Virus record (IMG/VR): IMGVR_UViG_3300035698_019136
Location: 35,573 to 99,572 of that record
DNA: 64,000 nt
Strand: one strand, 5' to 3'
From: a virus
Lineage: Duplodnaviria; Heunggongvirae; Uroviricota; Caudoviricetes
A program made the translations under genes and the position numbers. This document shows, piece by piece, positions 6,093 through 31,706 of the stretch (within the stretch, counting starts at the first letter, position 1; every line of letters begins with the position of its first letter). Under the pieces are notes generated by a model. That model saw nothing but the letters and a program-made list of their open reading frames with translations, had not been told where the DNA came from and ran no database searches.

Positions 6093-6106
6093 TGGGAAGG
6101 AGAGAA

Positions 6107-7135: not shown

Positions 7136-7145
7136 AGAGGGAAAG

Positions 7146-8238: not shown

Positions 8239-8285
8239 AAACTATACTTTTTACTTAATTTATTGTATAATATAGGAAGAAAGTT

Positions 8286-13088: not shown

Positions 13089-14174
13089 ATGCCTAAAGAT
13101 GTAAATCAACAGATATTAGATAGCATTCTCAGACATCTGCACTTTGTTAGAGCATATGAGAATCATATTTTGAAGAGTGAGATCCTTCCTATTCTTGTGA
13201 AAGCCAAGAAGGATATGCTGAAGAAGTATAATGATTTTGGCAAGAGAATAGGAAGGAAGAATCTCAATAGATTGACAAAGCAAGAAAGAGCAATGCTGGG
13301 TGTAAAGATGAGAGAGCTTGATGGGCTTATTAAGGTGGCAAACAGTAAGATATCAGGTGTAATGGATAAGAGACTTCTTCCTTTTGCTAAGTCAGAGGAG
13401 AAACTTTATCGTGGACTTATTTCAGATGCATTTCCTATTAGTCTTGGATTGAATAGACTTCCATTAGAGCAGTTGAAAAAATTAGTAGATGAACCATTGG
13501 GGGGACATAAGTATGCTGATAGATTGAAGAAGAATTATGGGGATGCTGTAGCAACAATGAAAACAGAAATTGGTGCTGGGATACTGAAGGGTGAGAGTAT
13601 GGTTCAAGTAAGGAATAGACTTATTGGAGTAGGGAAAGGAATGGGGGGGAAAGTAGGATTATTGATAGGGGACAGAGCTATAATGATAGCACGTAGTGAA
13701 ATTATGAGAGTGTCTAATGCTGTTAATGATCAGATTTATCGTGCGAATCAGGATATACTTAAAGGAGTTCAATGGGTTGCAACATTGGACTCCCGTACGT
13801 GCCCCCAATGCTCAATTCTTGATGGCAATGTGTATGATTATAGCAAAGGGGAAAGAGCACCTATAAGACCTCTTCATGTTTTTTGCCGTTGTGTTGTAGT
13901 AGGAATAACCAAGTCATGGAAAGAGTTAGGGGATGATAGCAAGATGGCAAAGCAGATGGATAAATTAGATCCAGGCTTACGAGCTACTATGTCAGGATAT
14001 GTTCCTGCTAAAGTGAAATATCCTACATGGTTTAATGCTCAGCCGGACAGTTTTAAAAGAAAAGTATTAGGCCCAGGTAGATTTGCATTGTATAAGAGTA
14101 AGGGATTATCTTACAATAGAATGGTTAAGAACGGTAGATGGATCACATTAAAGGATTTAGCTAAACTAAGATAA
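13089..14174 (+). CDS. head morphogenesis protein, SPP1 gp7 / Mu F family
   Basis: Hallmark motif ATLDSRTCPQCSILDGNVYD (D-x-RTC...C...DG). Position after the portal is typical. Confidence 0.75.
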   Translation: MPKDVNQQILDSILRHLHFVRAYENHILKSEILPILVKAKKDMLKKYNDFGKRIGRKNLNRLTKQERAMLGVKMRELDGLIKVANSKISGVMDKRLLPFAKSEEKLYRGLISDAFPISLGLNRLPLEQLKKLVDEPLGGHKYADRLKKNYGDAVATMKTEIGAGILKGESMVQVRNRLIGVGKGMGGKVGLLIGDRAIMIARSEIMRVSNAVNDQIYRANQDILKGVQWVATLDSRTCPQCSILDGNVYDYSKGERAPIRPLHVFCRCVVVGITKSWKELGDDSKMAKQMDKLDPGLRATMSGYVPAKVKYPTWFNAQPDSFKRKVLGPGRFALYKSKGLSYNRMVKNGRWITLKDLAKLR

Positions 14175-14319
14175 AAGGAGGATATATGGAATGTCATCAA
14201 GTTGTTTGTAAAGAACGAAAGGAAAGATCGGATAAGCTATATGATTTAGCATGTGAAATGTTGAGAGCTATTTTGCTTAATGGGGATATATCTGAGTTTG
14301 GGGAAGAGGACTGTGAGCG

Positions 14320-14526
14320 TTGGAGAATAGAACTATCAAAATTAAAAGGAGAATAAAGATGGAATGTTCTAAGTGTGGAATGGAAAATGAAGAAGATAGT
14401 TTTAATAAGATGTTTCAAGAGATTGGTATAGAAGTTGTTTGTTGTGAGGAAGAAATATGTGTTGTTAAGGAAGGTAAATGTAAATACTGTGGAGGGGAAC
14501 TATCAAAATTAAAAGAGGGGGGTTAG
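14320..14526 (+). CDS. small Cys-rich protein
   Basis: CSKCGMEN...CKYCGG pairs. Confidence 0.3.
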   Translation: MENRTIKIKRRIKMECSKCGMENEEDSFNKMFQEIGIEVVCCEEEICVVKEGKCKYCGGELSKLKEGG

Positions 14527-14676
14527 CATGATTTGGGATTTAATAGTTTGTTTAATGTTGATTTTGTTATTTATATATACTAGGATAGAGGATAGGAGAA
14601 TGAGGAAATATTTGATTAAAGTAATTAAAGATGCTGAAGAAAAAACAAAAAAATACAACAAAGAAGGAGAATAAGA

Positions 14677-15225
14677 ATGGCTAAAGAAAAAAAACAGAAA
14701 CCAATATTGAAGAAGAACTTCACTCATTACACTCAGATACCAAAGTCAATAAGGGATAGGAAAATAAATGACTTGGATCTTGCTAATGAATGGAATCAGA
14801 ATCTCCAAAAGGGTAGAGAAAATGGAGTTATGGAAGAATCCTACCCATGGATTATATGGTTTATAAAGTATTTTTGGAGTATAGCAGAGGGAAAATGGGT
14901 ATCAAGAGATCCATCAAAAGCTTTTTATCGAGAAAATCAAAGGCTTGCATTAGAAGAGATATTTCTTGTATTAAGTTTATTGGTTACTCGAAGAAATAAA
15001 TGTGGCAGTGATTTTATCCAGACTCTAATAGATATGTTAAAGAAGATAAAAATCAATGCCATAGAAATGGAAAGCACAATAGAAGTTAAAGAAATAGTAA
15101 AGGGAGAAGAAAATGGCCAAACAAAAGAAGAAAAAGGAAGTGAAAGTGAAGGAATTTACCCAGAAGGAGGAAATTCAGTTTCTGTTACACCCAGAAGAGA
15201 CCAAGATAAAGATGGAGACAAATGA
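14677..15225 (+). CDS. hypothetical protein
   Basis: ORF with AAGGAG RBS. Confidence 0.35.
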   Translation: MAKEKKQKPILKKNFTHYTQIPKSIRDRKINDLDLANEWNQNLQKGRENGVMEESYPWIIWFIKYFWSIAEGKWVSRDPSKAFYRENQRLALEEIFLVLSLLVTRRNKCGSDFIQTLIDMLKKIKINAIEMESTIEVKEIVKGEENGQTKEEKGSESEGIYPEGGNSVSVTPRRDQDKDGDK

Positions 15226-15250
15226 TGTATTATTCCGATTAGGGGATTTT

Positions 15251-15403
15251 ATGATGGGAACAGTTAGGTCAGAGTGGGATATAAAGATATTAAATAAATA
15301 CAAGGACATAATAGAAGAGGCAATTAGTAAATTAGAAGATTGTAAAAAGGTGGATGGGTTTGAAGACTTTCTAGGTAATTTAGAAAAAGGGATTATGCAC
15401 TAA
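15251..15403 (+). CDS. hypothetical small protein (alternative: longer ORF from 15113 overlapping the upstream gene)
   Basis: In-frame ATG after AGGGGA. The longer 15113 ORF overlaps 14677-15225 by 113 nt in another frame. Confidence 0.25.
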   Translation: MMGTVRSEWDIKILNKYKDIIEEAISKLEDCKKVDGFEDFLGNLEKGIMH

Positions 15404-15405
15404 TA

Positions 15406-15765
15406 GTGGATAAGAAATGCAAGCTCTGCCAAAGGAACTTTAGGGAAAAAGAGATTAAGTATGAAGTACTGTTGGATGTATTTAGTTCCTGTGATATATG
15501 CAAGCCTATTAAAAAAAAGTTTGAAGGAAAATCTATACTTATATACAGGATAAGTGAAAGGGTTTATTATAGGAAAGAAAAGGCTATGTTATGTGAGACT
15601 TGTGTAGAGGCTGCTTCTGTAGAAGAGGTACTTAGTTTTGGAAAAAAGATTAAAAGATCGGATTATACAGTTCTAAGTGAGGGGAAAGGATATGATATAG
15701 AAGAAGTTTCAGTAGTAAAAGGCATAGACTATGAAGAAGATAATGGAGAAGACGATGCTTACTAG
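15406..15765 (+). CDS. Cys-rich protein
   Basis: CKLCQ...CDIC...CETC motifs. Confidence 0.35.
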   Translation: MDKKCKLCQRNFREKEIKYEVLLDVFSSCDICKPIKKKFEGKSILIYRISERVYYRKEKAMLCETCVEAASVEEVLSFGKKIKRSDYTVLSEGKGYDIEEVSVVKGIDYEEDNGEDDAY

Positions 15766-15852
15766 AGTAATAAGAGTAAAGTGTTTATGGTGTGGGAAGA
15801 CATTAGATAACAGAAACAATGATAGACAGGTTGTAAATTTTTGCCGTAAAGA

Positions 15853-16050
15853 ATGCAAAAAGAAATACAAACAACAAGAAAGAAGGAGAAAATAATGGAA
15901 ATATTGGCAAAGATGACTACAAATATAGAAACCCCTATAGATATATCAATTAGAAGTGGTACGCTTAGTTATAGATTAATAGTAGATGGGAAGGTATATT
16001 GGATTGAAAAAGGAGAATGGGAAAAATTAACCAGAATAAAGGAGGAATAG
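15853..16050 (+). CDS. hypothetical small protein
   Basis: ORF in track. Confidence 0.3.
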   Translation: MQKEIQTTRKKEKIMEILAKMTTNIETPIDISIRSGTLSYRLIVDGKVYWIEKGEWEKLTRIKEE

Positions 16051-16054
16051 CATT

Positions 16055-16216
16055 ATGACAATGCAAGAAGAAATGACATTAGTAGGAAAGATATTAGAGG
16101 TAACAAAGGATGTAGATGTAAAGAGATTACCAAAGTTATTTGGTATGTGCGTAGTATACAGAACAACTCAGAATTTGGAAAAGAAAATAGAATTTCCTAA
16201 AATTCCTATAAAGTAA
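16055..16216 (+). CDS. hypothetical small protein ending KIEFPKIPIK
   Basis: 53-codon ORF not in the track (below 60 aa). Its C-terminal peptide and 3' sequence are repeated at the end of the next gene. Confidence 0.3.
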   Translation: MTMQEEMTLVGKILEVTKDVDVKRLPKLFGMCVVYRTTQNLEKKIEFPKIPIK

Positions 16217-16226
16217 GGAGGTAAAA

Positions 16227-16673
16227 ATGTGTTTATATACAGTAAGGAGATCCTGCTATGAGATCAAAGGAAATGTTCATTGTTCAGATTGTCCTGATAA
16301 GATTATAAAAGGGTATCAGGTAAGGTGGTGGAAGAGAATAAAAGATGAGAAGGTAGTGTATGCAGGAAGATACCATCATAATCCAATGTTAGAAATAGGA
16401 GAATGGGAGAGTTCCTGCAATGGGCAGACATATATGCGATCCTGGCCAAGGGAGCAACCTTATCCTTTAGGATATCATATTTATGGGAATAAAAGAGATG
16501 CAATAAAGGAATGGGATAAAATGGGAGTGATAGTAGCTGTTATAGGAAAAGAGTTAGTAGCAGTTGGAAAGAACAAGGAAAGTGACAGAGGATTAACTTA
16601 TATTTGTAAAAAGATGAAAATAGTTAAAGAGATTAAAGGTAAAATAGAATTCCCTAAAATTCCTACAAAGTAA
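16227..16673 (+). CDS. hypothetical protein ending KIEFPKIPTK
   Basis: ORF in track with AAGGAGG RBS. Confidence 0.4.
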   Translation: MCLYTVRRSCYEIKGNVHCSDCPDKIIKGYQVRWWKRIKDEKVVYAGRYHHNPMLEIGEWESSCNGQTYMRSWPREQPYPLGYHIYGNKRDAIKEWDKMGVIVAVIGKELVAVGKNKESDRGLTYICKKMKIVKEIKGKIEFPKIPTK

Positions 16674-16674
16674 G

Positions 16675-16818
16675 GAATTATCCTATCGTTTTTAGTTTCG
16701 GAATTATCCTATCGTTTTTAGTTTCGGAATTATCCTATCGTTTTTAGTTTCGGAATTATCCTATCGTTTTTAGTTTCGGAATTATCCTATCGTTTTTAGT
16801 TTCGGAATTATCCTATCT
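16675..16818. repeat. tandem direct repeat, 26-bp unit GGAATTATCCTATCGTTTTTAGTTTC x5.5 (iteron-like)
   Basis: Five perfect head-to-tail copies plus a partial copy are read directly. Shorter CATACCTAT repeats and an A9 run follow. Confidence 0.9.
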
Positions 16819-16834
16819 ATATCATACCTATTAG

Positions 16835-16851
16835 ACCTATCATACCTATCA
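16835..16851. repeat. inverted-repeat arm ACCTATCATACCTATCA (partner at 23091-23107)
   Basis: Read directly; part of the CATACCTAT short-repeat tract. Confidence 0.8.
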
Positions 16852-17026
16852 TACCTATTGATACCTATCAAAAAAAAATACAAAAAAGTTTGATAATAAA
16901 ACTGGGCATATTACCGGTGATTATGTAAACTAACTACATAAAATAATAGTTTAAGTGCATGTTATTATTATAATAATAGGTGTTTTAGTGTGTCATATTA
17001 TTGGCACTTTCGCCAGAATATTGACA

Positions 17027-17055
17027 TTGACATAACATATTGGTATTATTATAAT
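17027..17055 (+). promoter_or_regulatory. consensus sigma-A promoter TTGACA-17 nt-TATAAT (tandem TTGACATTGACA -35)
   Basis: Exact -35 and -10 hexamers with 17-nt spacing are read in the sequence. Confidence 0.55.
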
Positions 17056-17157
17056 AATTGGGATTTATTGGTTAGGTGTCTATATTTTGACAAGTTCATA
17101 AAGTGAACACACTATTTAAAGTCTAAAAACAAGGTTTTATTTTGGCATGATGATCGC

Positions 17158-17165
17158 TGTATAAT
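17158..17165 (+). promoter_or_regulatory. extended -10 element TGTATAAT upstream of the first small early gene
   Basis: TGnTATAAT lies about 40 nt upstream of the 17208 ATG. Confidence 0.4.
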
Positions 17166-17207
17166 AGGGTTCTACTAACATAAACCTACAAAACAGGGGG
17201 AGAAATT

Positions 17208-17585
17208 ATGATTTATATAACAAACACATTTTCACCGTTAATGCTTAAAGATAAAGAAAATAACAATTTCAAGGGAAAAGAATATTCTTTAGAAGAGATT
17301 CAGGATTATATTGAATCTCTTTATGAGGATGGTAATCCAGAGGATATTGTTTCGGCAATATCACATGAGGTTACTGTCCCTTTGATCAATACCCTATTGG
17401 ACTTGCAATTAAAGTTTAATAGGGTATCTTTAGCTCTGGAACCGAATGATGTAGTACTTTGCATTATTCCCAAGTTCAGAGCCGAAAAGGCTAGAGAATT
17501 TACAAAAGAGGAGGTCGAACAGGCTGGTGTAAGATGTTTTAAGATTGTAATAGTAGCTAGTAAAATATATGTAAATTTTATATAA
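17208..17585 (+). CDS. hypothetical protein
   Basis: ORF with GGGGGAG RBS; first gene after the noncoding hub. Confidence 0.4.
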   Translation: MIYITNTFSPLMLKDKENNNFKGKEYSLEEIQDYIESLYEDGNPEDIVSAISHEVTVPLINTLLDLQLKFNRVSLALEPNDVVLCIIPKFRAEKAREFTKEEVEQAGVRCFKIVIVASKIYVNFI

Positions 17586-17610
17586 ACCATAAAACAGGGA
17601 GATAAAAAAA
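17583..17610 (+). promoter_or_regulatory. conserved intergenic cassette TAAACCATAAAACAGGGAG (stop + SD)
   Basis: One of about 14 near-identical elements between small genes. Confidence 0.5.
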
Positions 17611-17784
17611 ATGGATAAATTAGATAGGAAAATAGAGTGCATATTTATAGGTAAAGGATCTTGTGATTCCTGCGGGGAGTGTGAAAAAACAATAGAGGAA
17701 GATCTAGGAAGAAAAATTGATATAGGAAGTAAAGAGGAAGTGGACAAGTTAAGTAGAAATGAACTTTATAATTTATTAACATAA
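17611..17784 (+). CDS. small Cys-rich protein (CDSCGEC)
   Basis: 57-aa ORF not in the track, directly after the cassette. Confidence 0.35.
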   Translation: MDKLDRKIECIFIGKGSCDSCGECEKTIEEDLGRKIDIGSKEEVDKLSRNELYNLLT

Positions 17785-17814
17785 CCCCTCCCCAGAGGGA
17801 AAAGGAGCCAACAA

Positions 17815-18006
17815 ATGGCATATCAAAAAGAAGTAAAAAACATCGATGAAGTGTTGGAAATATTAAAAAAGATAGGAGTGAAATATTTAACAGTTAATAA
17901 AATAGATAATTCCATGTTTTGGCATGGCATAGCATTTTATGGGCCTGATAGTTTCCAAGTTGCATACTATGACGAAGAGAAAGAAATTATAAATATAAAA
18001 GCTTGA
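17815..18006 (+). CDS. hypothetical small protein
   Basis: ORF with AAGGAG RBS. Confidence 0.35.
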   Translation: MAYQKEVKNIDEVLEILKKIGVKYLTVNKIDNSMFWHGIAFYGPDSFQVAYYDEEKEIINIKA

Positions 18007-18228
18007 CAAAAAAACAGTACTATGATTAAGTAAACTTAAACCATAAAAAATAGGGAGATTAAAACTATTAAAAAAACAGGAGAAAAGATAATAGGTAGAA
18101 TAAATGGCAAGAGAGCAAAACTTTCTAAAAAGAGATGGTTAAAATTAATGGATAATAAGAATAACCATATTAGTTTTAAAGAAGATTAAATAAACTTAAA
18201 CCATAAAAAATAGGGAGGGCAAAAAGTA

Positions 18229-18327
18229 ATGAGATTATCAAGAGTTATAAAGATTTTAGGGAATAGAAGACGGTCACAGTTCGGAGTGAGAAAAAGACGG
18301 AAAAGAGTTAAAGGAAGAAAAAAATAA
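18229..18327 (+). CDS. tiny highly basic protein (32 aa, R/K-rich)
   Basis: ORF after a perfect copy of the cassette TAAACTTAAACCATAAAAAATAGGGAGG. Confidence 0.25.
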   Translation: MRLSRVIKILGNRRRSQFGVRKRRKRVKGRKK

Positions 18328-18359
18328 TATAAACTTATAAAAATAGGAGATATAAGACT

Positions 18360-18935
18360 ATGGAAACTACTGATATAAAAAAACTAAAAGAAGTAAGCAA
18401 GGCATCAGCAACTAGAATACAAAACAATGGAATACTAGAAAATGTATATATTGATACAAATAAAACTCTAGTCAACAATAATATAGTAGATAGTGGACCA
18501 GGCGAAGCACTAGCTATAGGATGCGATGGACATATATTAGCTATGACGTCCATTGAGGTTGAAATTAATGGCAGTAGTAATGTCCAGATTCCAGCAGTAT
18601 TATTGGGAAAGTTTAAAGAGAGTAAAAATGGGGCAAATAACATAAGCATAACCCCGGATGACACTCGGCCGAATGATAGGAAAATTAGTATATTAAATAA
18701 AGAAGGCTGTCGGACTATACCATTAGATTATTTCGGAGAGTTTCCAGATTATGAAAAGGCAGTACCATCAGCTGATGGAGTTGTAAAAATTGGGTTAAAT
18801 GTTACTGTATTGAAAAAACTTCTCAGTTGCTTTAGCAAAGATGAAGTTATAACATTGTATGTCAAGGATGAGAGATCCCCGGTGTTAGTTACCGGGCAAG
18901 AAAAAACTGGTGTTATAATGCCTTGTAAAATATAA
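18360..18935 (+). CDS. hypothetical protein
   Basis: 191-aa ORF after the cassette TAAACTTATAAAAATAGGAGA. Confidence 0.4.
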   Translation: METTDIKKLKEVSKASATRIQNNGILENVYIDTNKTLVNNNIVDSGPGEALAIGCDGHILAMTSIEVEINGSSNVQIPAVLLGKFKESKNGANNISITPDDTRPNDRKISILNKEGCRTIPLDYFGEFPDYEKAVPSADGVVKIGLNVTVLKKLLSCFSKDEVITLYVKDERSPVLVTGQEKTGVIMPCKI

Positions 18936-18959
18936 ACTTATAAAAATAGGAGAGAGATT
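18933..18959 (+). promoter_or_regulatory. conserved intergenic cassette TAAACTTATAAAAATAGGAGAGAGATT
   Basis: The identical element recurs at 19399-19424. Confidence 0.5.
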
Positions 18960-19400
18960 ATGGACAAAGTAATAAATATAGGGAAACAATCAACATATGG
19001 TGGCAGGAAATATAATGTATACTGTCATATAAAGTACAATGCTTGCAGGTTATCAATTTCAGGAGTGGAAGGACCTCTAATAAGTGGAAGAGCTTTGGGT
19101 AGTTGCGGGCAAATTATAGACGGTTGCTATTGGGATATAATTGAGCTAGACAAGGACTGGACTCCTAACATGCTAAAGAATTTCCTGGAAATATGGGATA
19201 AATGGCATTTAAACGATATGCATGCTGAATGTGAGCATCAAGAGGCGTTAGGAATTACATGTAGAACAGATCCTTGTGCAACTTGTCCTGTTTGTGGTTA
19301 TAAGTTAGGTAGTGGATGGACTGTCAGAGAAGTTCCTCAAGATGTAATTGACTTTCTCTTTTCCCTTCCTCTATCAACTAAAACACCAGATTGGTTTTAA
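18960..19400 (+). CDS. Cys-rich protein
   Basis: Multiple Cys/His: CHIKYNAC, CGQIIDGC, CATCPVCGYK. Confidence 0.4.
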   Translation: MDKVINIGKQSTYGGRKYNVYCHIKYNACRLSISGVEGPLISGRALGSCGQIIDGCYWDIIELDKDWTPNMLKNFLEIWDKWHLNDMHAECEHQEALGITCRTDPCATCPVCGYKLGSGWTVREVPQDVIDFLFSLPLSTKTPDWF

Positions 19401-19424
19401 ACTTATAAAAATAGGAGAGAGATC

Positions 19425-19601
19425 ATGAAATGGAAATTGACATATTATGAGTGGTATTTAAGAGAATCAGCAACAATTTACTTGTCAAGCAAAGGAGGAG
19501 TACTGAAGTTTATTGAGGAAAAGGGAGAGGGGCAAATAATGTCGTATACTGAGGTGGATGGAGATATAGAACCTTATGAATTCCAAAAAGAGGAGATATA
19601 A
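19425..19601 (+). CDS. hypothetical small protein
   Basis: 58-aa ORF after the cassette; not in the track. Confidence 0.3.
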   Translation: MKWKLTYYEWYLRESATIYLSSKGGVLKFIEEKGEGQIMSYTEVDGDIEPYEFQKEEI

Positions 19602-19604
19602 ATA

Positions 19605-20273
19605 ATGATTGATATAGATAACTTAGTTATCGAGGTCACAAGACGATGCAATATGTTATGTCCTCATTGTTTGAGGGGAGATCAACAGGAGAAAGATATA
19701 TCTTTTGAGGTATTACAAAAGATAGCTGACACGTTTGGTTATATTTCCACTATTGCATTTACTGGAGGGGAACCTTCTCTCAACTCCTGGGCAATAGATA
19801 AATTTATTGATTTATGCCGAAGTCAAGAAGTCGGTATAGGTAGCTTCTATATTGCTACTAATGGCAAAAAATATTCAGATAGATTTTTAAAATCATTAAT
19901 GAATCTATGGATATACTGTGATGATAACGAAGTAAGTCAAGTTACAGTGTCAAGATCGGACTTTCACGAAGATCAAGACGAAAGAGAAATCGAGAAAATC
20001 AAATGTTTTCGATTTGTAGATGAAAGAGAAAACCTCACAGAAAAGTATTTAATTGCCGAGGGTAGAGCGTTAGATAACTTTTATTGTAGAATAAATCGGG
20101 AACCTGATAAATTCGAGATAGAAGATGACCAGATTATTGGTGGTTCGCTATATATAACAGTTGATGGTGATATTATACCAGGCTGTGATTTTAGCTATGA
20201 TAGGATGGAGGAGGAAAAGGTAGGTAATATTTTAAAAGATGATATTATGGAAGTATTACCAATAGAAAACTAA
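19605..20273 (+). CDS. radical SAM enzyme (small, about 220 aa; NrdG/QueE-size class)
   Basis: CNMLCPHC (CxxxCxxC) near the N-terminus and a glycine-rich FTGGEPSL SAM-binding motif. Confidence 0.7.
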   Translation: MIDIDNLVIEVTRRCNMLCPHCLRGDQQEKDISFEVLQKIADTFGYISTIAFTGGEPSLNSWAIDKFIDLCRSQEVGIGSFYIATNGKKYSDRFLKSLMNLWIYCDDNEVSQVTVSRSDFHEDQDEREIEKIKCFRFVDERENLTEKYLIAEGRALDNFYCRINREPDKFEIEDDQIIGGSLYITVDGDIIPGCDFSYDRMEEEKVGNILKDDIMEVLPIEN

Positions 20274-20299
20274 ACCATAAAACAAGGGAGGTATAAATC
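20271..20299 (+). promoter_or_regulatory. conserved intergenic cassette TAAACCATAAAACAAGGGAGG
   Basis: Starts with the stop codon of the radical SAM gene. Confidence 0.5.
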
Positions 20300-20911
20300 A
20301 TGAGACAAGAAACAATTAATTTATACAAATTTGATGAATTATTAAAAGAATCTCAAGAGAAAGTTCTGGAAAGAATGGCCGATATCAATGTGGATTTCAA
20401 CTGGTGGGATTTCGAGGATGCAGAAACAATAGGATCTATAATGGGGATTGAAATAGATGACATTTATTTCAATGGGTTTGGTTCCCAGGGAGATGGGGCT
20501 TATTTTGAAGGGAATTATGAATATAGAAAAGGAAGTGTGAAAAAATTAAAGGCTTATGCTCCTGTAGATAGGGAATTACATAGAATCGTTGAAAGTCTTT
20601 TCAAATTGCAGAAAAGTAATCGATATAGGTTGCAAGCAATAATTAAACACAAAGGACATTTTCACAATGAAAATAGTACAGAAATAGAAGTATATCAATA
20701 TCAGGATAGTTATGGAGATCAATTCCTTATAAGATCGGGGCATTTTTCTTGTAATTATGAAGAGTTAAGAGAGCTGCTGCGGGATTTTATGCGATGGATA
20801 TATAAGCAGCTAGAAAAACAATATGAATATTTGACAAGCAAGGAAGGTATCATTGAAACGATAAAATCTAATGGTTATGAATTCCAGGCCAATGGCACTT
20901 TAGGCTATTAA
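20300..20911 (+). CDS. hypothetical protein
   Basis: 203-aa ORF. Confidence 0.4.
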   Translation: MRQETINLYKFDELLKESQEKVLERMADINVDFNWWDFEDAETIGSIMGIEIDDIYFNGFGSQGDGAYFEGNYEYRKGSVKKLKAYAPVDRELHRIVESLFKLQKSNRYRLQAIIKHKGHFHNENSTEIEVYQYQDSYGDQFLIRSGHFSCNYEELRELLRDFMRWIYKQLEKQYEYLTSKEGIIETIKSNGYEFQANGTLGY

Positions 20912-20935
20912 ACCATAAAACAAGGGGAGTATATT
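20909..20935 (+). promoter_or_regulatory. conserved intergenic cassette TAAACCATAAAACAAGGGGAG
   Basis: Same element as at 17583 and 20271. Confidence 0.5.
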
Positions 20936-21205
20936 ATGGGAAAGCAGACGTTTAGAGAGGGTGAGGCCTCACATTTTAATTCCTTGATAGGGCCGTGGGT
21001 TGAAAAGAACGGGTTAAAAGTAGATTGGAAGTTTAGAGAAGGAAGAGGAAGATGGAACAAGGGTAAAACAATAAGCTATTTTGTTATAACAGGGAAAGAT
21101 TATTATGGGGAATGGGGAAGTGATGCAATTGTAGAATTGAACGGGTTAGTAAATTCTTTCGGTGTTGATTATAGAGTAATAGGAAATTCTGTAATAGTGG
21201 AGTAA
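20936..21205 (+). CDS. hypothetical protein
   Basis: 89-aa ORF. Confidence 0.35.
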   Translation: MGKQTFREGEASHFNSLIGPWVEKNGLKVDWKFREGRGRWNKGKTISYFVITGKDYYGEWGSDAIVELNGLVNSFGVDYRVIGNSVIVE

Positions 21206-21237
21206 AGCCTAACTAAAAACAAGGGGAGGATAAGATC
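21206..21237 (+). promoter_or_regulatory. cassette variant CTAACTAAAAACAAGGGGAGGATAAGATC
   Basis: Variant family shared with 21403-21429. Confidence 0.45.
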
Positions 21238-21405
21238 ATGGATATAATCAACAAAACAGCACGTTATATATACTCATTTTATGGCAGTCAAGATTATGGA
21301 GAAAAGGTTAGTGAATATAGTAGTCTATTGGCTTTTATAATAAATGAGAGGGAGGACATAATTAAAAAAGTGTTGACATATACAATTGAACAATATAACA
21401 TCTAA
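21238..21405 (+). CDS. hypothetical small protein
   Basis: 55-aa ORF not in the track. Confidence 0.3.
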   Translation: MDIINKTARYIYSFYGSQDYGEKVSEYSSLLAFIINEREDIIKKVLTYTIEQYNI

Positions 21406-21429
21406 TTAAAAACAAGGGGGGATAAGATT

Positions 21430-21750
21430 ATGAAAAAACAAGAATATAAAGACTACCAAGAGAAAGTAAGCAAGTTTTTTAAACGTGAAGGGATCAACAA
21501 TCTATCTCTTGCAGTGTCAGAAGATGACACAATTTGTCCAGGTTGTGATAATGAGCAAAGCTTTGAGCCTTCATTTAGTTATTGGCCTTGCGATTGCTGT
21601 AATAGGGATCTTGGAGGCGATCGTTATCACTGCTCTGGTTATAACCCGGAAACTGAAGAGATTTATTGTTATTATGTATGCCCAGATTGTCTATATTATG
21701 CTGAGTACGGGATGCTTGATGATATGACTATGATGGAAATGGAAGAATAA
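21430..21750 (+). CDS. Cys-rich protein (MKKQEY...)
   Basis: CPGCDN...CDCCN...CPDC motifs. Confidence 0.4.
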   Translation: MKKQEYKDYQEKVSKFFKREGINNLSLAVSEDDTICPGCDNEQSFEPSFSYWPCDCCNRDLGGDRYHCSGYNPETEEIYCYYVCPDCLYYAEYGMLDDMTMMEMEE

Positions 21751-21779
21751 CTAACTAAAAGGAAAGGGAGGACAAGATT
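21748..21779 (+). promoter_or_regulatory. cassette variant TAACTAACTAAAAGGAAAGGGAGGACAAGATT
   Basis: Repeated almost exactly at 21942-21975. Confidence 0.45.
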
Positions 21780-21941
21780 ATGACATTAGTACAATTCATA
21801 AGGGAGAATAGAGAAGAGATTGACAAGGGGATTAAAAGGGTAGTACCTAACTGTAAGTTGAATGATGGAGAAAGGAGGGAATGGGTGATGAATGACGAAG
21901 GACTCTATAATTGGGCAAGAAGTGAGGGAGTGAAGATATAG
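21780..21941 (+). CDS. hypothetical small protein
   Basis: 53-aa ORF not in the track. Confidence 0.3.
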   Translation: MTLVQFIRENREEIDKGIKRVVPNCKLNDGERREWVMNDEGLYNWARSEGVKI

Positions 21942-21975
21942 GGTAACTAACTAAAAGGAAAGGGAGGATAAGATT

Positions 21976-22143
21976 ATGAAAAAACAAGAATGGAATAAAG
22001 AATTCGAGCCAAACGAAATTGACCTAGAGGAAATTGCACATGCAATAACTGAAGAGTGTACAAGTGGTCGCTTGGATTGTGAGGGAAGGTATATTTATTG
22101 GGAATTAAAAATGAATACTTGGACTAAAGAGGAAGGGAAATAA
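21976..22143 (+). CDS. hypothetical small protein (MKKQEW..., CxxxxxxC)
   Basis: 55-aa ORF with the same MKKQE start as 21430. Confidence 0.3.
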   Translation: MKKQEWNKEFEPNEIDLEEIAHAITEECTSGRLDCEGRYIYWELKMNTWTKEEGK

Positions 22144-22594
22144 AGATAAGCAGTATAGAAAAAGTTCTTTACTATTTGTTAAAAATACTATATAATAGAT
22201 ATATAGGGTATAGAACAAGAGAACATAATACAAATATTAAAATGTATGAATAGAGGAGGTATAAAATGAAGTAGAACAAAGCTAAGAAGTATTGGGGAAT
22301 AGAATGTATATAGGAGTGCTAGAATTAAGTTTTTAGCACTCTTATTTGTTGATATGTGCTATATAGGCGATAAAATAAATTATAGACTATAGAGGGAGAG
22401 TATGGAGTCATGACTTGATAAGAGTCAAGATATAATATATAATAGATATATAGAGTGCAAAAATACAGGGTATTATAATAAGAGTAGAGGACAACATGAA
22501 CAGAAAAATGAGCGAACTTCTTAAACCTTTTTTAAACAAAGGCTCTAATAAGAGTATTATAGCACTACAATGATACTACAATAGGAGTGTAATA

Positions 22595-22795
22595 ATGGGT
22601 AGATCAATAAAGGGTAATTGGGAATACAAGGGAGACAGAGAAGTATACACAAACAGGGTACTACACTATATTTTAACTAATGGCCTACAACTAAGTGATT
22701 TCCTCAGAGATATAAAGTATAAGGGTGTCATATTACCAGACAAATTAGTTACGGGCCTTTATGAGAGATTGACAGCTAATCCACTAAATGAATAG
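22595..22795 (+). CDS. hypothetical protein, tandem paralog 1 (WEYKGDRE-YTNRV-HYI)
   Basis: About 70% identical to the next ORF. Confidence 0.4.
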   Translation: MGRSIKGNWEYKGDREVYTNRVLHYILTNGLQLSDFLRDIKYKGVILPDKLVTGLYERLTANPLNE

Positions 22796-23012
22796 GAGTG
22801 CAATAATGGGGAAACCAAAAGAGAAAATACATAAGAGTGACTGGGAATACAAGGGAGATAGGGAAGAGTATACAAACAGGGTTATGCATTATATTATAGC
22901 TAATGGCTTGCAATTAGGGAAGTTCTTAGCTGATATAGAATATAAGGGTATTATATTGCCAGACAAATTGATCAAGGGTATCAAGGCCAGGCTATCATCT
23001 AACCCTTTATAA
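22788..23012 (+). CDS. hypothetical protein, tandem paralog 2
   Basis: Paralog of 22595-22795; also shares the upstream AATAGGAGTG(T/C)AATAATGG. Confidence 0.4.
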   Translation: MNRSAIMGKPKEKIHKSDWEYKGDREEYTNRVMHYIIANGLQLGKFLADIEYKGIILPDKLIKGIKARLSSNPL

Positions 23013-23085
23013 ATTCCAGGTCTCTCAGGCTCCTGGTCTCTCAGGCTCCAAGTCTTGCGGGACGGGCAAAGTCTGGAGGACTGAG
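23013..23085 (+). other. GC-rich structured element with direct repeat GGTCTCTCAGGCTCC x2 (terminator/RNA element candidate)
   Basis: A locally GC-rich segment in an AT-rich genome, immediately after the paralog pair. Confidence 0.35.
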
Positions 23086-23090
23086 AGGTA

Positions 23091-23107
23091 TTGATAGGTA
23101 TGATAGG
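23091..23107. repeat. inverted-repeat arm TGATAGGTATGATAGGT (partner at 16835-16851)
   Basis: Exact reverse complement of ACCTATCATACCTATCA at 16835-16851. Confidence 0.8.
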
Positions 23108-23510
23108 TAGCCCTACCCTAGTGGAAAAAATTAATTTTTTTGTAGTGGTTCAGTACCTAGCTCTTAATTATAACCAAATTTTTAGGCCATTTTCTATAAG
23201 TACATGAGATTATTAGACTTTTATGCCTCACAAAAACTTAATAGATTCATAGGAGATAAGTTATGATAGCACCAGGAATAATAGTAGCGATATTAGTAAC
23301 AGTGATAGGAATAGCAATGATAGTTGCATTTAATAAAGAATAGAAAAGAGGTTGTATAAATGAGTATAGTTAGTAAAAAAGTGTGGGGTTTTTTGGACTT
23401 TGGGTATAGATAAGTATAGTTGAGTATAAGAACTAGTAAAAAAACATCAGTTTGCTATAAAAAACAGTCTTAAATATGTAATTTTATTAAATAAAAAGGG
23501 GTGATACAAA

Positions 23511-24599
23511 TTGAGAAAATATAAGAACCATGAAGACATTAGAGAGTACTTCAAAGGTTGCATTGATGAGAACACTAAGATAGATAAAAACATGGGAATG
23601 GTGTGGGGCATATGTGCATTCAGGCCAGAAAGCTTAAATAACAGAATATACAAGCCCAAAGCTGTTAATGCGATAAAAAGTTTAATGGATGGATGTAAAT
23701 GTTTTATGGATCATGGAGATTGTTTTTCAGGCCAAAGTCTGGAGAACTTAACCGGAATATTGCACAAGCCAAGAAAGCATAATGGAGGTATTTACGCAGA
23801 TCTTGAGATATTAGATAATGCAAAATGCAGGAATATGTTTTTTGAGATGGCAGAAAATCATCCTTCCTCTACGGGATTTTCGATATCTGCCAGAGGAGTA
23901 TTTGCAGAAGAAAAGGATGATCAAGGCAGAGAGCAAGTAGAAGATATTACAAATCTTTGGAGTACTGACTGGGTAGATTCCCCGGCCACTACTTCTGGTA
24001 TGTTTGAAAAAAAAGAAACCAATATAAATAAAAACTCAGGAGGTGATACAAGAATGGATAAGATATTAATGTATTTAGAAGGCAAAATTAAAGTGAAAGG
24101 TTTGACTGAGGATGGCCAAGAGCAAGCGGTCATTAAGTATATAGAGGACTTGGAAGAATCTGACTATACCATTAATGAGTCTTTGAAATCTGTTAAAGAA
24201 GATAATGAGTCTTTAAAGGCAGAGAATGCTAAAATTACAAAAGAGTTTGGAGATACTAAAGATAAGCTGATTACAGCTACAGGTAAACTTCAAATTCACG
24301 AAGATGAAAATACTAAAAAAGAAACTCTAAAAAGTAGAAAAGAGTTGATTGCAAAAGTATTAGTAGAAGAGAAATTAGAAATTAAAGAGATTTCTGAAAA
24401 AATGAATAAAATATTCCATAGTTTTTCAGAGGCAGAAGCTGAAGATCAGATTCGGGAATTGGTTAAGCTGCAAAAGACTAAACTGAATCCTGATATGGAT
24501 AACGGTGATGAACATATAAATGAGTCAAATTCTGGAGATAAAAAGAAATTGACTGACGAGGAAGCTAGACTAAAACTCCAGGAAGCTTTAGAATACTAA
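23511..24599 (+). CDS. prohead protease (HK97 S78-like) fused to coiled-coil scaffold-like domain
   Basis: N-terminal motifs FMDHGD, HPSSTGFSISARG and LWSTDWVDSPA resemble the His/Ser/EVSLV-PA motifs. The C-terminal half is a K/E-rich coiled coil. The gene sits just upstream of the capsid gene. Confidence 0.5.
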   Translation: MRKYKNHEDIREYFKGCIDENTKIDKNMGMVWGICAFRPESLNNRIYKPKAVNAIKSLMDGCKCFMDHGDCFSGQSLENLTGILHKPRKHNGGIYADLEILDNAKCRNMFFEMAENHPSSTGFSISARGVFAEEKDDQGREQVEDITNLWSTDWVDSPATTSGMFEKKETNINKNSGGDTRMDKILMYLEGKIKVKGLTEDGQEQAVIKYIEDLEESDYTINESLKSVKEDNESLKAENAKITKEFGDTKDKLITATGKLQIHEDENTKKETLKSRKELIAKVLVEEKLEIKEISEKMNKIFHSFSEAEAEDQIRELVKLQKTKLNPDMDNGDEHINESNSGDKKKLTDEEARLKLQEALEY

Positions 24600-31016: not shown

Positions 31017-31706
31017 ATGATTAAAGTAGATATTGGCAAAGAATGCACAGATGAGTATTGCAAGAAGGCAGTAGAGTCTATAAGTGGAATTCTCAATAGA
31101 GATTACGATGCCTGGGGACTCCCTACAATTCTTCAAATATCAGAAGGGACTACACCTATAAGCTACTTTAAAGAAGTCTTAGATTGTAAGACTAGAAATA
31201 TGATAAGAAAACCATCAAAATATAATATATTTTTTCGACAGGTAAAGAAAAACTTGGTTTTAAAGCAAGTGCATGAGATTAATACATCTTCTTTATTTAG
31301 GCAAGGAAGAATAATGAGTGAAGGGTATAGAAAATTTCCAAAGTATACTAAGTATGAAAGAAATTGTGATAAACATTACTGGCAATTTTATGGAGCTTTT
31401 AGTGAAGAGGGGAAATTTGATAGATTAATAGCTTACATATCTGTTTTAACATATAAAGAGTTGATTCTTGTTAGCCAGATTCTTGGTCACGCTGATTACT
31501 TAAAAACAGGGGTGATGAACTTCCTACTTTATTGGACTATTGTGGATATTATGAATTGGAATTCCTATGTTAAATATATTCAGTATGGTTTTTGGGGGTC
31601 AGGGGAAGATGGTCTAAGGCATTTCAAAAAGTCTATGGGGTTTAAGCCAATGGACATAAGAGAAGGTGAACACAGGGTTAGAAGGTATGATAGGTTTAAT
31701 AGGTAG
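31017..31706 (+). CDS. FemAB/CelD-like GNAT-fold acyl/aminoacyl-transferase candidate
   Basis: C-terminal LRHFKKSMGFKP matches the L-x-FKK-x-GF motif of FemAB/BioF2-like GNATs. Confidence 0.4.
   Translation: MIKVDIGKECTDEYCKKAVESISGILNRDYDAWGLPTILQISEGTTPISYFKEVLDCKTRNMIRKPSKYNIFFRQVKKNLVLKQVHEINTSSLFRQGRIMSEGYRKFPKYTKYERNCDKHYWQFYGAFSEEGKFDRLIAYISVLTYKELILVSQILGHADYLKTGVMNFLLYWTIVDIMNWNSYVKYIQYGFWGSGEDGLRHFKKSMGFKPMDIREGEHRVRRYDRFNR

What the first reader, a model, noticed from the sequence alone, without database searches (positions are those of the whole stretch)
16835..23107. 17-bp inverted repeat brackets the whole small-gene block
ACCTATCATACCTATCA at 16835-16851 is the exact reverse complement of TGATAGGTATGATAGGT at 23091-23107. 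The two arms sit at the two ends of the roughly 6.2-kb array of small early genes (17208-23012). Such bracketing could mark paired regulator binding sites (looping). It could also mark boundaries of an invertible or exchangeable module, or recombination sites by which the accessory block was acquired.
Basis: seen in the sequence. Interest (0 to 1): 0.55.

Follow-up and report, generated by a model that had tools for sequence, protein, structure and literature searches.

The report
Repeat arrays flanking phage early-gene cassette
The 17-bp inverted repeat is real, but it is only the overlap of two oppositely oriented arrays (of three in the window) of a 9-bp protein-binding-type repeat; the arrays mark the borders of a swappable early anti-defence gene cassette wedged into the head-gene module of a novel uncultivated phage, which is interesting but not unprecedented.

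Summary
An exact 17-mer inverted pair in 64 kb is not rare by itself (38% of simulations). What is non-random is the context. Each arm lies in a tandem array of a 9-bp unit (TGATAGGTA): 5.6 units on the left, 2.9 inverted on the right. A third array sits at 31679-31705. These are the only three such loci, and all lie at gene-module junctions.

The bracketed block is a cassette with sigma70-type promoters. Its first gene belongs to the AcrIII-1 (DUF1874) ring-nuclease family. It sits between the MuF/SPP1-gp7-family gene and the prohead protease/scaffold gene, the slot where SPP1 carries oriR plus morons.

Relative L018 has a non-homologous cassette in the same slot, flanked by arrays of a related 8-bp unit in direct orientation. 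L202 carries the window's 13-mer upstream of its protease gene despite 51% capsid identity. The block encodes no recombinase, and no inversion was seen.

Best reading: iteron-type binding arrays of one phage DNA-binding protein, with an origin-like left cluster and satellite sites. Rivals are late-transcription control and long-terminal-repeat borders. An invertible segment is not supported. An exchangeable module is supported.

The parts
13089..14174 (+). MuF / SPP1-gp7-family head morphogenesis gene. It marks the upstream side of the slot, together with the small Cys-rich ORFs at 14186-16673.
   Evidence: PF04233 3.2e-12 and phrog_241 7.9e-62. Portal 11065-12585 and TerL 8891-10495 lie upstream.
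16674..16817 (.). 26-bp perfect tandem repeat, 5.5 copies (GGAATTATCCTATCGTTTTTAGTTTC). Each copy holds a degenerate motif core, CCTATCG.
   Evidence: TRF 100% matches; the repeat finder D1. 9 of the 11 + strand CCTATC in the window lie at 16682-16864. A contig from another sample (L200) ends exactly where this array starts.
16820..16870 (-). Left array: 5.6 units of the 9-bp repeat (TGATAGGTA read on the - strand). It contains the exact 17-mer arm at 16835-16851.
   Evidence: (D8, I1, I9).
16871..17020 (.). A9 tract and AT-rich spacer between the arrays and the promoters (possible unwinding region; not proven).
   Evidence: Sequence. Duplex stability is in the least-stable ~1% of the window but not unique.
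17021..17170 (+). Cluster of host-type (sigma70 consensus) promoters that drive the block.
   Evidence: TTGACA-17-TATAAT 12/12 at 17027-17055 and 11/12 with TG at 17021-17049. Extended -10 TGTATAAT near 17160 (by eye).
17208..17585 (+). First gene of the block: DUF1874 / STIV B116-like, AcrIII-1 (viral ring nuclease) family.
   Evidence: PF08960 3.8e-12, 46.6 bits against a cutoff of 26. PDB 2j85 2.2e-7, 2x4i/6scf (SIRV1 gp29) and Crn2-type fusions 8y7f.
17208..23012 (+). Early accessory cassette of about 16 small genes. Contents include a clamp-like 191-aa protein, a radical SAM/SPASM protein, a phrog_5162 protein and two paralogs at the 3' end. It has an internal terminator at 22310-22345 and a second promoter at 22415-22443.
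   Evidence: None of its proteins has a homolog in the L018 cassette.
23015..23055 (.). 16-bp tandem repeat, 2.6 copies (TCCAGGTCTCTCAGGC), followed by an imperfect hairpin that ends at the first unit of the right array.
   Evidence: sequence. The RNA fold is not better than shuffles (z -0.31). L072 has a different 16-bp repeat at the same place.
23082..23109 (+). Right array: 2.9 units of the 9-bp repeat, inverted relative to the left array. It contains the exact 17-mer arm at 23092-23108.
23118..23200 (+). Conserved non-coding element just downstream of the right array (AGTGGAA ... GTAGTG.CAGT.CC ... AAATTTTTA.CC.ATTTT). It is a candidate late (non-sigma70-consensus) promoter region of the head operon.
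   Evidence: Alignable in window, L202, L072, L018, L021 and L203. No conserved RNA structure. No strong sigma70 match in 23013-23510.
23511..24599 (+). Prohead protease/scaffold-type gene, marking the downstream side of the slot. It is followed by a 183-aa gene and the major capsid gene at 25231-26271.
   Evidence: Position and homologs in all relatives. MCP PF25209 2.7e-17.
31679..31705 (+). Third array: 3 units in the same orientation as the right array, also followed by GTGG(G/A)AAAA. It is read as a 13-codon 3' extension of ORF 31017-31706.
   Evidence: The L018 homolog (51% identity) ends before this extension.

Best explanation
The inverted repeat is not a discrete pair of crossover sites. 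It is the overlap between two of three arrays of one 9-bp iteron (consensus TGATAGGTA). I take these arrays to be cooperative binding sites of a single phage-encoded, sequence-specific DNA-binding protein.

The large left cluster has about 5 contiguous units plus 6 degenerate cores inside the 26-bp repeats, then an A-tract and AT-rich stretch, then strong host-type promoters. That is the layout of an iteron-type phage origin or control region. It heads an early, self-promoted anti-defence cassette lodged between the MuF (SPP1 gp7 family) gene and the prohead protease/scaffold gene. SPP1 carries oriR plus moron genes in that same slot.

The two small arrays (23.09 kb, just upstream of the conserved head-operon leader, and 31.69 kb) would be satellite sites for the same protein. 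By pairing with the main cluster or acting as roadblocks, they would couple or insulate the early cassette and the late operons. Orientation would not matter.

Shown: the arrays, their confinement to three module junctions, the cassette's promoters and its AcrIII-1-family first gene, the slot, the parallel architecture in L018, and the same 13-mer in L202.
Inferred: protein binding, the origin function, and pairing between clusters.
For: - Array structure and restriction to three loci.
- The left cluster combines two tandem families that share the CCTATC core, followed by an A9/AT-rich stretch in the least-stable ~1% of the window and then 12/12 and 11/12 sigma70 promoters.
- The third array is a DNA element rather than a coding constraint. 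It encodes a C-terminal extension absent from the 51%-identical L018 homolog.
- L018 (capsid 50% identical) has the same layout. An 8-bp unit ACTTATAR, 6 of 8 positions like ACCTATCA, is present x3 at both borders of a non-homologous cassette. Large 13-bp and 12-bp tandem arrays, an AT-rich palindromic region and a TTGACA promoter lie on its left.
- L203 has 13 copies of a 12-bp repeat, palindromes and an AT-rich region on the left of a small cassette.
- L202 has head genes 33-53% identical to the window. It carries AGGTATGATAGGT, the 13-mer common to all three window arrays, in 27-bp repeats. These sit at the same position and in the same orientation as the window's right array, while the flanking DNA is otherwise unalignable. 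This points to constraint or transfer of a specificity determinant.
- Motif type is incongruent with head-gene phylogeny: L202 and L018 share 78% capsid identity but have different motifs. Initiator/iteron, repressor/operator and similar cognate pairs behave this way.
- Precedent: in SPP1, oriR (direct repeats plus an AT-rich DUE bound by gp38) and morons 8-10 interrupt the head module between gene 7 and gene 11. A second repeat set, oriL, lies kilobases away (PMC6316719; record NC_004166).
Against: - No initiator or other candidate binder was identified. Replication genes are not in the window.
- GC skew shows no inflection at 16.8 kb; it follows transcription throughout.
- The AT-rich stretch is not uniquely unstable.
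- In L202 the large array is at the right border, next to the head-operon leader. That fits a transcriptional role at least as well.
- L203 has no copy of its left-array unit on the right, so bracketing is not universal.
- L018's shared 15-mer is only modestly significant (my estimate, p about 0.02-0.2).
- All comparative evidence rests on four short or partial relatives.
Confidence: 0.36

Rival explanations
1. Temporal transcription control or insulation. The arrays bind a phage regulator that activates the late promoter of the head operon (right array) and another late unit (third array). The oppositely oriented left cluster shuts off or insulates the early cassette. This is a phi29-p4-like or Ltr/Alt-like early/late switch.
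For: - The right and third arrays are co-oriented with transcription, and both are followed by GTGG(A/G)AAAA.
- The right array lies 10 nt upstream of a non-coding element conserved in six phages. That element has no conserved RNA fold and no strong sigma70 match, as expected of an activator-dependent late promoter.
- L202, L018, L021 and L072 all have some short repeat array just upstream of that element.
- A Mor-family activator gene lies at 7867-8238.
- Direct repeats are proven recognition sites of late activators in Gram-positive phages (PMC3753634).
Against: - No array lies upstream of the Mor/TerS/TerL operon (7.8-8.9 kb), where a late promoter is expected.
- Mor/C proteins bind dyad sites, not direct-repeat arrays (my knowledge).
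- The left cluster is the largest, is inverted, lies 150-200 nt upstream of the early promoters, and faces no minus-strand gene.
- The spacing from the array to any -10-like hexamer differs between the right and third sites.
Confidence: 0.25
2. Borders of a long direct terminal repeat. The 6.2-kb block is the terminal redundancy of a linear genome, collapsed to one copy in the assembly. The inverted repeats mark the junctions where terminase or a nickase cuts, as in Twort-like (Kayvirus) phages.
For: - The block consists of small early genes behind consensus host promoters. An anti-defence gene comes first, as expected for DNA that enters the cell first.
- At 6.2 kb the block would be about 5% of a genome of roughly 110-125 kb, the size of relatives' contigs.
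- Tandem repeats pile up at the left border.
- Twort-like phages have 7.6-8 kb LTRs that hold early host-takeover genes. [quoted passage not shown]
Against: - In L018 the analogous arrays are direct.
- A third array exists inside the unique region.
- The block lies in the middle of a Mu/SPP1-type head module, in a slot known to hold morons and oriR in SPP1.
- TerL is too distant from any characterised terminase to suggest a packaging type.
- No contig ends at the arms except at tandem repeats, where assemblers break anyway.
Confidence: 0.12
3. Passive mosaic-boundary sequences. The arrays are short shared sequences at module junctions. They serve only as substrates for homologous or illegitimate recombination that shuffles cassettes, like lambdoid 'boundary sequences' or T4-type PeSL cassettes. 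They have no dedicated binding protein.
For: - All three arrays coincide with synteny breaks relative to L018.
- Cassette content is completely replaced between the window and L018.
- Motif distribution is incongruent with head-gene phylogeny.
- The protease next to the array is much more diverged between L202 and L018 (46%) than its neighbours (65-84%), which suggests a recombination joint.
Against: - The unit differs between relatives (window/L202 against L018 against L203), so the arrays cannot provide homology across most of the group.
- The tandem 9-bp periodicity and the retention of an exact 13-mer in otherwise unalignable DNA argue for selection on the sequence itself.
Confidence: 0.1
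4. Invertible (shufflon/Gin-type) or transposable segment bounded by terminal inverted repeats.
For: A 17-28 nt inverted repeat lies at both ends of a discrete gene block.
Against: - No invertase, integrase or transposase domain occurs in any block ORF.
- No target-site duplication flanks the arms (sequence).
- All block genes are co-oriented with the whole genome and keep its strand composition.
- The independent contig L017 has the same orientation.
- Orientation is direct in L018.
- A third copy exists elsewhere.
Confidence: 0.02
5. Chance, or neutral slippage expansions of an AT-rich microsatellite-like unit with no function.
For: An exact 17-mer inverted pair occurs in 38% of simulated 64-kb sequences. 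The 17-mer also occurs by chance in hundreds of unrelated metagenome contigs.
Against: - Enrichment is 7 against 0.44 expected.
- The motif is restricted to three module junctions.
- The C-rich strand version lies on a strand with only 10.8% C.
- The same 13-mer sits at the homologous position in L202.
Confidence: 0.07

Closest known systems
Bacillus phage SPP1: oriR plus moron genes 8-10 between gene 7 (MuF family) and gene 11 (scaffold), with a second repeat set, oriL, elsewhere
   Same: - Same slot in the same head-gene order: TerS-TerL-portal-gp7/MuF | insert | scaffold-MCP.
- The insert starts with short direct repeats (AGACAC boxes with about 10-nt spacing) plus an AT-rich region, followed by a promoter and accessory genes, and is 'bracketed between transcriptional signals'.
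- The same repeats recur kilobases away and are bound by one protein, gp38 (PMC6316719; NC_004166 sequence).
   Different: - The window's cassette is three times larger (6.2 against 1.9 kb), clearly early, and anti-defence.
- The satellite arrays are only 3 units long and inverted.
- No gp38-like initiator is visible in the window.
- Proteins are not detectably related to SPP1 apart from the family-level match of MuF.
- Origin function is untested here.
Iteron replicons with separated or inverted control repeats (satellite phage P4 ori/crr about 4.5 kb apart bound by the alpha protein; plasmid P1 incC/incA, F ori2/incC).
   Same: One protein recognises short repeats clustered at two or more places kilobases apart. 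Orientation of the second cluster is not critical. The clusters pair (looping or handcuffing).
   Different: In those systems the initiator gene lies between or next to the clusters. Here the intervening 6.2 kb shows no Rep-like gene, and a third cluster lies 8.6 kb further on.
Twort-like (Kayvirus) long terminal repeats bordered by 12-bp inverted repeats
   Same: A block of 6-8 kb of small early host-takeover genes with host-type promoters, delimited by a short inverted repeat (PMC7596081; PMC11598898).
   Different: - Terminal redundancy is not demonstrated here.
- The repeats are tandem arrays rather than a single 12-mer.
- A third copy exists.
- The analogous arrays in L018 are direct.
- The block interrupts the head module.
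Direct-repeat recognition sites of late transcriptional activators (RinA/Ltr/ArpU, TP901-1 Alt)
   Same: Three to four short direct repeats upstream of a late morphogenetic operon act as lineage-specific recognition sites. Cognate pairs are swapped between related phages (PMC3753634).
   Different: Those repeats lie immediately after the activator gene and upstream of terS. Here no array lies at terS, and the largest array is upstream of early promoters in inverted orientation.
Mobile regulatory cassettes (PeSL) and 'boundary sequences' that mediate modular shuffling in T4-type and lambdoid phages. From my own knowledge.
   Same: Repeated short regulatory sequences flank small early accessory genes in hyperplastic regions and coincide with mosaic joints.
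   Different: PeSLs are promoter plus stem-loop units repeated between every small gene. Here the arrays are only at the outer borders and differ between relatives.

Membership tests
Iteron-type phage origin / control region (SPP1 oriR-like) | Cluster of three or more short direct repeats | tested here: met
   9-bp x5.6 plus 26-bp x5.5 sharing the CCTATC core.
Iteron-type phage origin / control region (SPP1 oriR-like) | Adjacent AT-rich DNA-unwinding element | tested here: inconclusive
   A9 and an AT-rich 150 nt stretch. It is in the least-stable ~1% of 40-80-nt windows, but several other places are equal or lower.
Iteron-type phage origin / control region (SPP1 oriR-like) | Cognate origin-binding protein encoded by the phage | not testable with these tools
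   No initiator-like domain in the 116 ORFs scanned so far. The replication module appears to lie outside the window.
Iteron-type phage origin / control region (SPP1 oriR-like) | Second set of the same repeats elsewhere in the genome | tested here: met
   Arrays at 23082-23109 and 31679-31705.
Iteron-type phage origin / control region (SPP1 oriR-like) | Replication initiates there | not testable with these tools
   GC skew is monotonic and follows transcription. Needs marker-frequency or 2D-gel data.
Long direct terminal repeat (Twort-like / T5-like) | Block of small early genes with host-type promoters | tested here: met
Long direct terminal repeat (Twort-like / T5-like) | Short inverted repeat at the two LTR/unique junctions, conserved in relatives | tested here: inconclusive
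   Present in the window, but the analogous arrays in L018 are direct.
Long direct terminal repeat (Twort-like / T5-like) | Two copies per virion genome (2x coverage, fixed ends) | not testable with these tools
   No reads available. Contigs break only at tandem repeats.
Site-specific invertible segment (Gin/Hin/Cin type) | Invertase gene in or next to the segment | tested here: not met
   Pfam scan of all block and flanking ORFs at E<=0.01 found no resolvase, invertase or integrase.
Site-specific invertible segment (Gin/Hin/Cin type) | Both orientations found in sequence data | tested here: not met
   The only independent contig of the same phage (L017, 99.95% identity) has the window's orientation across the right arm. 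This is one sample only.
Transposon / insertion sequence | Terminal inverted repeats plus transposase plus target-site duplication | tested here: not met
   No transposase. The bases outside the arms differ (..TATTAG| and |AGCCCT..). A third copy lies elsewhere.
Late-activator recognition repeats (Ltr/RinA/ArpU/Alt type) | Short direct repeats immediately upstream of a late promoter | tested here: inconclusive
   The right and third arrays precede a conserved leader or a gene start, but no transcription start is known.
Late-activator recognition repeats (Ltr/RinA/ArpU/Alt type) | Repeats located after the activator gene and upstream of terS | tested here: not met
   No array lies near the Mor-like gene or TerS (7867-8890).
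AcrIII-1 / DUF1874 viral ring nuclease (gene 17208-17585) | Match to PF08960 above the gathering score, and to solved family members | tested here: met
   46.6 bits against a cutoff of 26. PDB hits: 2j85 at 2.2e-7, plus 2x4i, 6scf, 2j6b and 8y7f.
AcrIII-1 / DUF1874 viral ring nuclease (gene 17208-17585) | Conserved active-site histidine; cA4 cleavage | tested here: inconclusive
   'aisHevT' aligns with B116 'aigHdsT', so the His is conserved in the alignment. Activity is not testable here.

The most novel reading that the evidence does not exclude
The arrays and their unidentified cognate binder form a portable 'cassette-boundary' system in a so far undescribed lineage of ~110-125-kb environmental phages. 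Lineage-specific iteron arrays would demarcate a hypervariable early anti-defence cassette inside the head operon. One protein would couple the cassette's replication or expression to late gene expression. The arrays would also act as the joints at which whole cassettes and specificities are exchanged between phages. That would explain why L202 has L018-like head genes but the window's motif.
Probability: 0.15. Interest if true: 0.65.

Novelty: new variant of a known kind. Interest (0 to 1): 0.4.

Why it matters
If the arrays are binding sites of one phage protein, they offer a handle on how a large uncultivated phage keeps a fast-evolving early anti-defence cassette inside its late head operon without disturbing late expression. 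The cassette's first gene belongs to the AcrIII-1-type anti-CRISPR family. The arrays would also show how such cassettes are swapped between phages.

The case extends the SPP1 observation (oriR plus morons between gp7 and the scaffold gene) to a distant group. It also points to a short, testable DNA motif and a conserved candidate late-promoter element.

It is not a new principle. Iteron clusters at a distance, repeat-bordered early regions and mosaic boundaries are all known. The function here remains inferred.

Tried and rejected
- Near and protein-level searches of 50,697 phage records with the region, portal and capsid found nothing. TerL gave only 22-31% matches, useless for inferring packaging type.
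- The MuF search in IMG/VR found nothing.
- The exact 17-mer gave 16 hits in IMG/VR and 120+ in JGI metagenomes. All were chance or coding hits, with no relation to the window by blastn or tblastn.
  - L008 had the motif x2.4 about 3.7 kb from a homolog of the 203-aa protein. It had no other similarity and no second copy, so I treated it as coincidence.
  - L003 is a eukaryotic-virus-like coding repeat.
- The composite pattern of array plus GTGGRA in IMG/VR gave 18 chance hits in coding DNA.
- The protease/scaffold protein has only itself in the 5.8-billion-protein set. MuF homologs sit on contigs too short to reach the border.
- Distant relatives (capsid identity 46% or lower) show no bracketing repeats between MuF and protease. 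L078 has only similar terminator hairpins in its gaps.
- Rfam found no RNA family in the gaps.
- The right-border hairpin and array fold no better than shuffles. The conserved leader has no consensus RNA structure. I therefore dropped an RNA-level reading, including the idea of a long-range 5'/3' duplex that excises the block. L018's direct orientation also argues against that idea.
- A Rho-utilisation (C-rich, G-poor) reading of the left array (23% C, 3% G) cannot explain the G-rich right and third arrays.
- Reading the arrays as integrase arm-type sites or tRNA-like attP was rejected. There is no integrase, and no tRNA hit at the conserved element.
- DUE prediction by duplex stability was inconclusive.
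- PDB searches of the 203-aa, 191-aa and Mor-like proteins gave nothing decisive.

Full report
OBSERVATION. The left arm ACCTATCATACCTATCA is at 16835-16851. Its exact reverse complement is at 23092-23108, one base to the right of the coordinates given. The complementarity extends to 28 nt at 89% (16843-16870 / 23082-23109). Each arm is part of a tandem array of a 9-bp unit, read as TGATAGGTA on the purine-rich strand. There are 5.6 units at 16820-16870 and 2.9 units at 23082-23109 in the opposite orientation.

The left array is preceded by a perfect 26-bp x5.5 tandem repeat (16674-16817) whose unit contains the degenerate core CCTATCG. It is followed by A9 and an AT-rich stretch. The right array is preceded by a 16-bp x2.6 repeat and an imperfect hairpin.

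A third array of three units, in the orientation of the right arm, lies at 31679-31705. A scan for two or more units spaced 8-11 nt apart finds only these three loci in 64 kb.

IS IT MORE THAN CHANCE? The exact 17-mer alone is not. Second-order Markov simulations of the window contain at least one exact 17-nt inverted pair in 38% of cases. The context is beyond chance:
- Matches with up to 3 mismatches number 7 against 0.44 expected, with 0 of 100 shuffles reaching that.
- The C-rich version lies on a strand with only 10.8% C, and all three + strand ACCTATC heptamers are in the left array.
- The two arms occupy two of the four large intergenic gaps of the window, exactly those bounding the block.
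- The motif recurs at the homologous place in another phage (see below).

WHAT THE BLOCK IS. All genes of the window are on the + strand, with strong positive GC skew. The surroundings form a Mu/SPP1-type head module:
- Mor-family activator (7867-8238)
- TerL (8891-10495)
- lambda-family portal (11065-12585)
- MuF/SPP1-gp7-family protein (13089-14174)
- small Cys-rich ORFs up to 16673
- the block (17208-23012)
- a prohead protease/scaffold-type gene (23511-24599), a 183-aa gene, and the major capsid gene (25231-26271)

The block has its own consensus sigma70 promoters (12/12 at 17027-17055, 11/12 with TG at 17021-17049). It also has an internal terminator (22310-22345) and a second promoter (22415-22443). 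The 498-nt gap before the protease gene has no strong sigma70 match.

The first gene (17208-17585) belongs to the DUF1874 / STIV B116 / AcrIII-1 ring-nuclease family. It matches PF08960 at 46.6 bits, and PDB entries 2j85, 2x4i/6scf and Crn2-type fusions. Other products are a weakly clamp-like protein, a radical SAM/SPASM protein and proteins of unknown function.

No recombinase, invertase, integrase or transposase domain was found. 'Early accessory/anti-defence cassette' is therefore a supported description.

RELATIVES. The phage has no detectable relative among 50,697 deposited phage genomes. Capsid homologs exist only in metagenomes, some on 105-126-kb contigs and some mis-binned into MAGs.

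Distant relatives (capsid identity 46% or lower) keep the order portal-MuF-(0.1-5 kb)-protease-capsid. They have no large gaps and no bracketing repeats. The MuF-protease junction is thus a variable slot.

Six closer sequences are informative.

(i) L017 is the same phage from another sample (99.95% identity). It is collinear across the right arm. L200 ends exactly where the 26-bp array begins.

(ii) L018 (126.6-kb scaffold, capsid 50%) has a non-homologous small-gene cassette in the same slot.
- Its left gap holds an 8-bp unit AACTTATA x3, a 13-bp perfect array so long that the scaffold has an N gap, a 12-bp x4 array, an AT-rich palindromic region and a TTGACA promoter.
- Its right gap holds two terminators and then ACTTATAG/ACTTATAA x3-4, about 130 nt upstream of the conserved leader.
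- The 15-mer ACTTATAAACTTATA is shared by the two gaps in direct orientation.
- The unit resembles the window's (ACYTATMA).

(iii) L202 has head genes 65-84% identical to L018 (protease 46%) but only 33-53% identical to the window.
- It begins with at least 2.5 copies of a 27-bp repeat, AGGTATGATAGGTATCAAACAATTGAC.
- This contains the 13-mer AGGTATGATAGGT that is common to all three window arrays.
- It has the same position and orientation as the window's right array.
- The flanking DNA is otherwise unalignable.

(iv) L203 (capsid 45%) has 13 copies of a 12-bp repeat, palindromes and AT-rich DNA to the left of a 1-kb cassette. It has no copy on the right.

(v) L021 and L072 have G-rich short repeats at the right border.

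Downstream of the right array, a non-coding element (AGTGGAA ... GTAGTG.CAGT.CC ... AAATTTTTA.CC.ATTTT) is conserved in all six phages. It has no conserved RNA structure.

The third window array is translated as a 13-residue tail of ORF 31017-31706. The L018 homolog lacks this tail, and gene content diverges from that point on.

INFERENCE. The arrays are functional DNA elements located at module junctions. Four observations characterise them:
- Their unit sequence is lineage-specific and incongruent with head-gene phylogeny.
- Inverted symmetry is not conserved.
- Bracketing is frequent but not universal.
- Arrays of contiguous 8-9-bp repeats with these properties are the usual signature of a cooperative, sequence-specific DNA-binding protein whose specificity is exchanged together with its sites.

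The left clusters (several tandem families, then AT-rich DNA, then a strong promoter) look like iteron-type origins or control regions.

The closest documented case is SPP1. There the conserved head-gene order is interrupted, between gene 7 (the founding member of the MuF/gp7 family) and scaffold gene 11. The interrupting segment is 'bracketed between transcriptional signals' and holds oriR (direct repeats plus an AT-rich DUE bound by gp38) and three morons. A second repeat set, oriL, lies elsewhere (PMC6316719). The SPP1 sequence shows a terminator, AGACAC boxes, AT-rich DNA, a promoter and then gene 8.

I therefore rank an origin-like main cluster with satellite sites first (0.36).

A purely transcriptional role comes second (0.25). 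Activator sites at a late head-operon promoter, plus early-cassette control, would fit the right and third arrays and the L202 array. It does not fit the large inverted left cluster or the absence of an array at terS.

Long-terminal-repeat borders come third (0.12). They have a striking precedent in Twort-like phages, but L018's direct orientation, the third array and the location inside the head module weaken this reading. It cannot be tested without reads.

Passive recombination boundaries (0.10), chance (0.07) and an invertible or transposable segment (0.02) follow.

It needs three corrections: the off-by-one, the array nature of the arms, and the third copy. Of the proposed meanings:
- 'Paired regulator binding sites' remains plausible.
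- 'Exchangeable module boundary' is supported by comparison.
- 'Invertible module' is not supported.
- 'Recombination sites of acquisition' is unproven.

NOVELTY AND INTEREST. The phage lineage is new to databases. Iteron arrays delimiting an AcrIII-1-led early cassette inside a head operon is a new variant of known themes (SPP1 oriR plus morons, P4 ori/crr-type distant iterons, repeat-bordered early regions). Function is inferred, so interest is moderate (0.4).

Noticed in passing
window 5794-5844 and 7525-7575: Two adjacent exact segments (27 + 24 nt) are each inverted in place (left = X.Y, right = rcX.rcY). They bracket 1.7 kb that includes an SMC_N-like ATPase ORF (6092-6709). The right copy is the 3' end of ORF 7122-7580 plus the ribosome-binding site of the next gene. 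The left copy lies antisense within the start of ORF 5781-6092. This is longer and statistically stronger than the finding's repeat.
   Followed up: partly
window 23118-23200; L202 88-178; L072 58-150; L018 6866-6960; L021 1262-1372; L203 ~3100-3160: A conserved non-coding element lies just downstream of the right array and upstream of the protease/scaffold gene in six phages whose capsids are only 45-63% identical to the window's. It has no conserved RNA fold and no sigma70 consensus. It is a candidate late promoter or leader of the head operon.
   Followed up: partly
L202 1-75 (JGI 3300033064, Ga0364475_10277025): The contig starts inside a 27-bp tandem repeat that carries the window's motif (AGGTATGATAGGT). 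Its head genes are close to L018, which uses a different unit. This is evidence for swapping of the motif type between lineages.
   Followed up: yes
window 34254-58506: A ~25-kb cluster of glycan and modification enzymes sits between the capsid gene and the connector/tail genes. It includes group 1 and 4 glycosyltransferases, two B12-binding radical SAM enzymes, UDP-galactopyranose mutase and a SPASM radical SAM enzyme. Relatives have the tail genes only 4-7 kb after the capsid gene.
   Followed up: partly
window 61429-62112: An HNH + NUMOD3 homing-endonuclease-type gene lies among head-tail genes. Its homologs sit at different positions in relatives, for example between portal and MuF in L026.
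   Followed up: no
L021 3386-7038: In this relative (capsid 60%, TerL 66%) the capsid gene is followed within 1 kb by TerS-like and TerL genes. The head module is therefore arranged differently from the window, where terminase, portal and MuF lie upstream of the cassette.
   Followed up: no
window 17181-17210, 18330-18359, 18933-18962, 19398-19427; 21206-21241, 21748-21783, 21944-21979: Families of near-identical 30-36-nt intergenic cassettes containing ribosome-binding sites are repeated between the small genes of the block. The last two genes (22595-22795, 22788-23012) are paralogs. Both features suggest internal duplication and shuffling (D2-D6).
   Followed up: no
L203 764-925 and 1-760: There are 13 copies of a 12-bp repeat (CGTCATTTYRMR), followed by palindromes and AT-rich DNA, at the left of a small cassette. 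They are preceded by 760 nt of unusually GC-rich non-coding DNA with its own short repeats (TGAGCGGCA, ATGTGATC).
   Followed up: partly
window 49096-49167: A tRNA gene (Rfam 53.8 bits) for which ARAGORN could not assign an anticodon ('tRNA-???'). L018 has two tRNAs at a different place.
   Followed up: no
P0063 (ENA contig, MuF homolog 62% identical): A close MuF homolog carries Hint/intein domains (PF07591, PF14890), that is, an intein inserted in the head morphogenesis protein.
   Followed up: no
window 16184-16219 and 16641-16676: The 3' ends of two consecutive small ORFs (16055-16216 and 16227-16673) share a 36-nt repeat (94% identity) that encodes ...KIEFPKIP(I/T)K. The second copy runs into the first 26-bp repeat (D12).
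   Followed up: no
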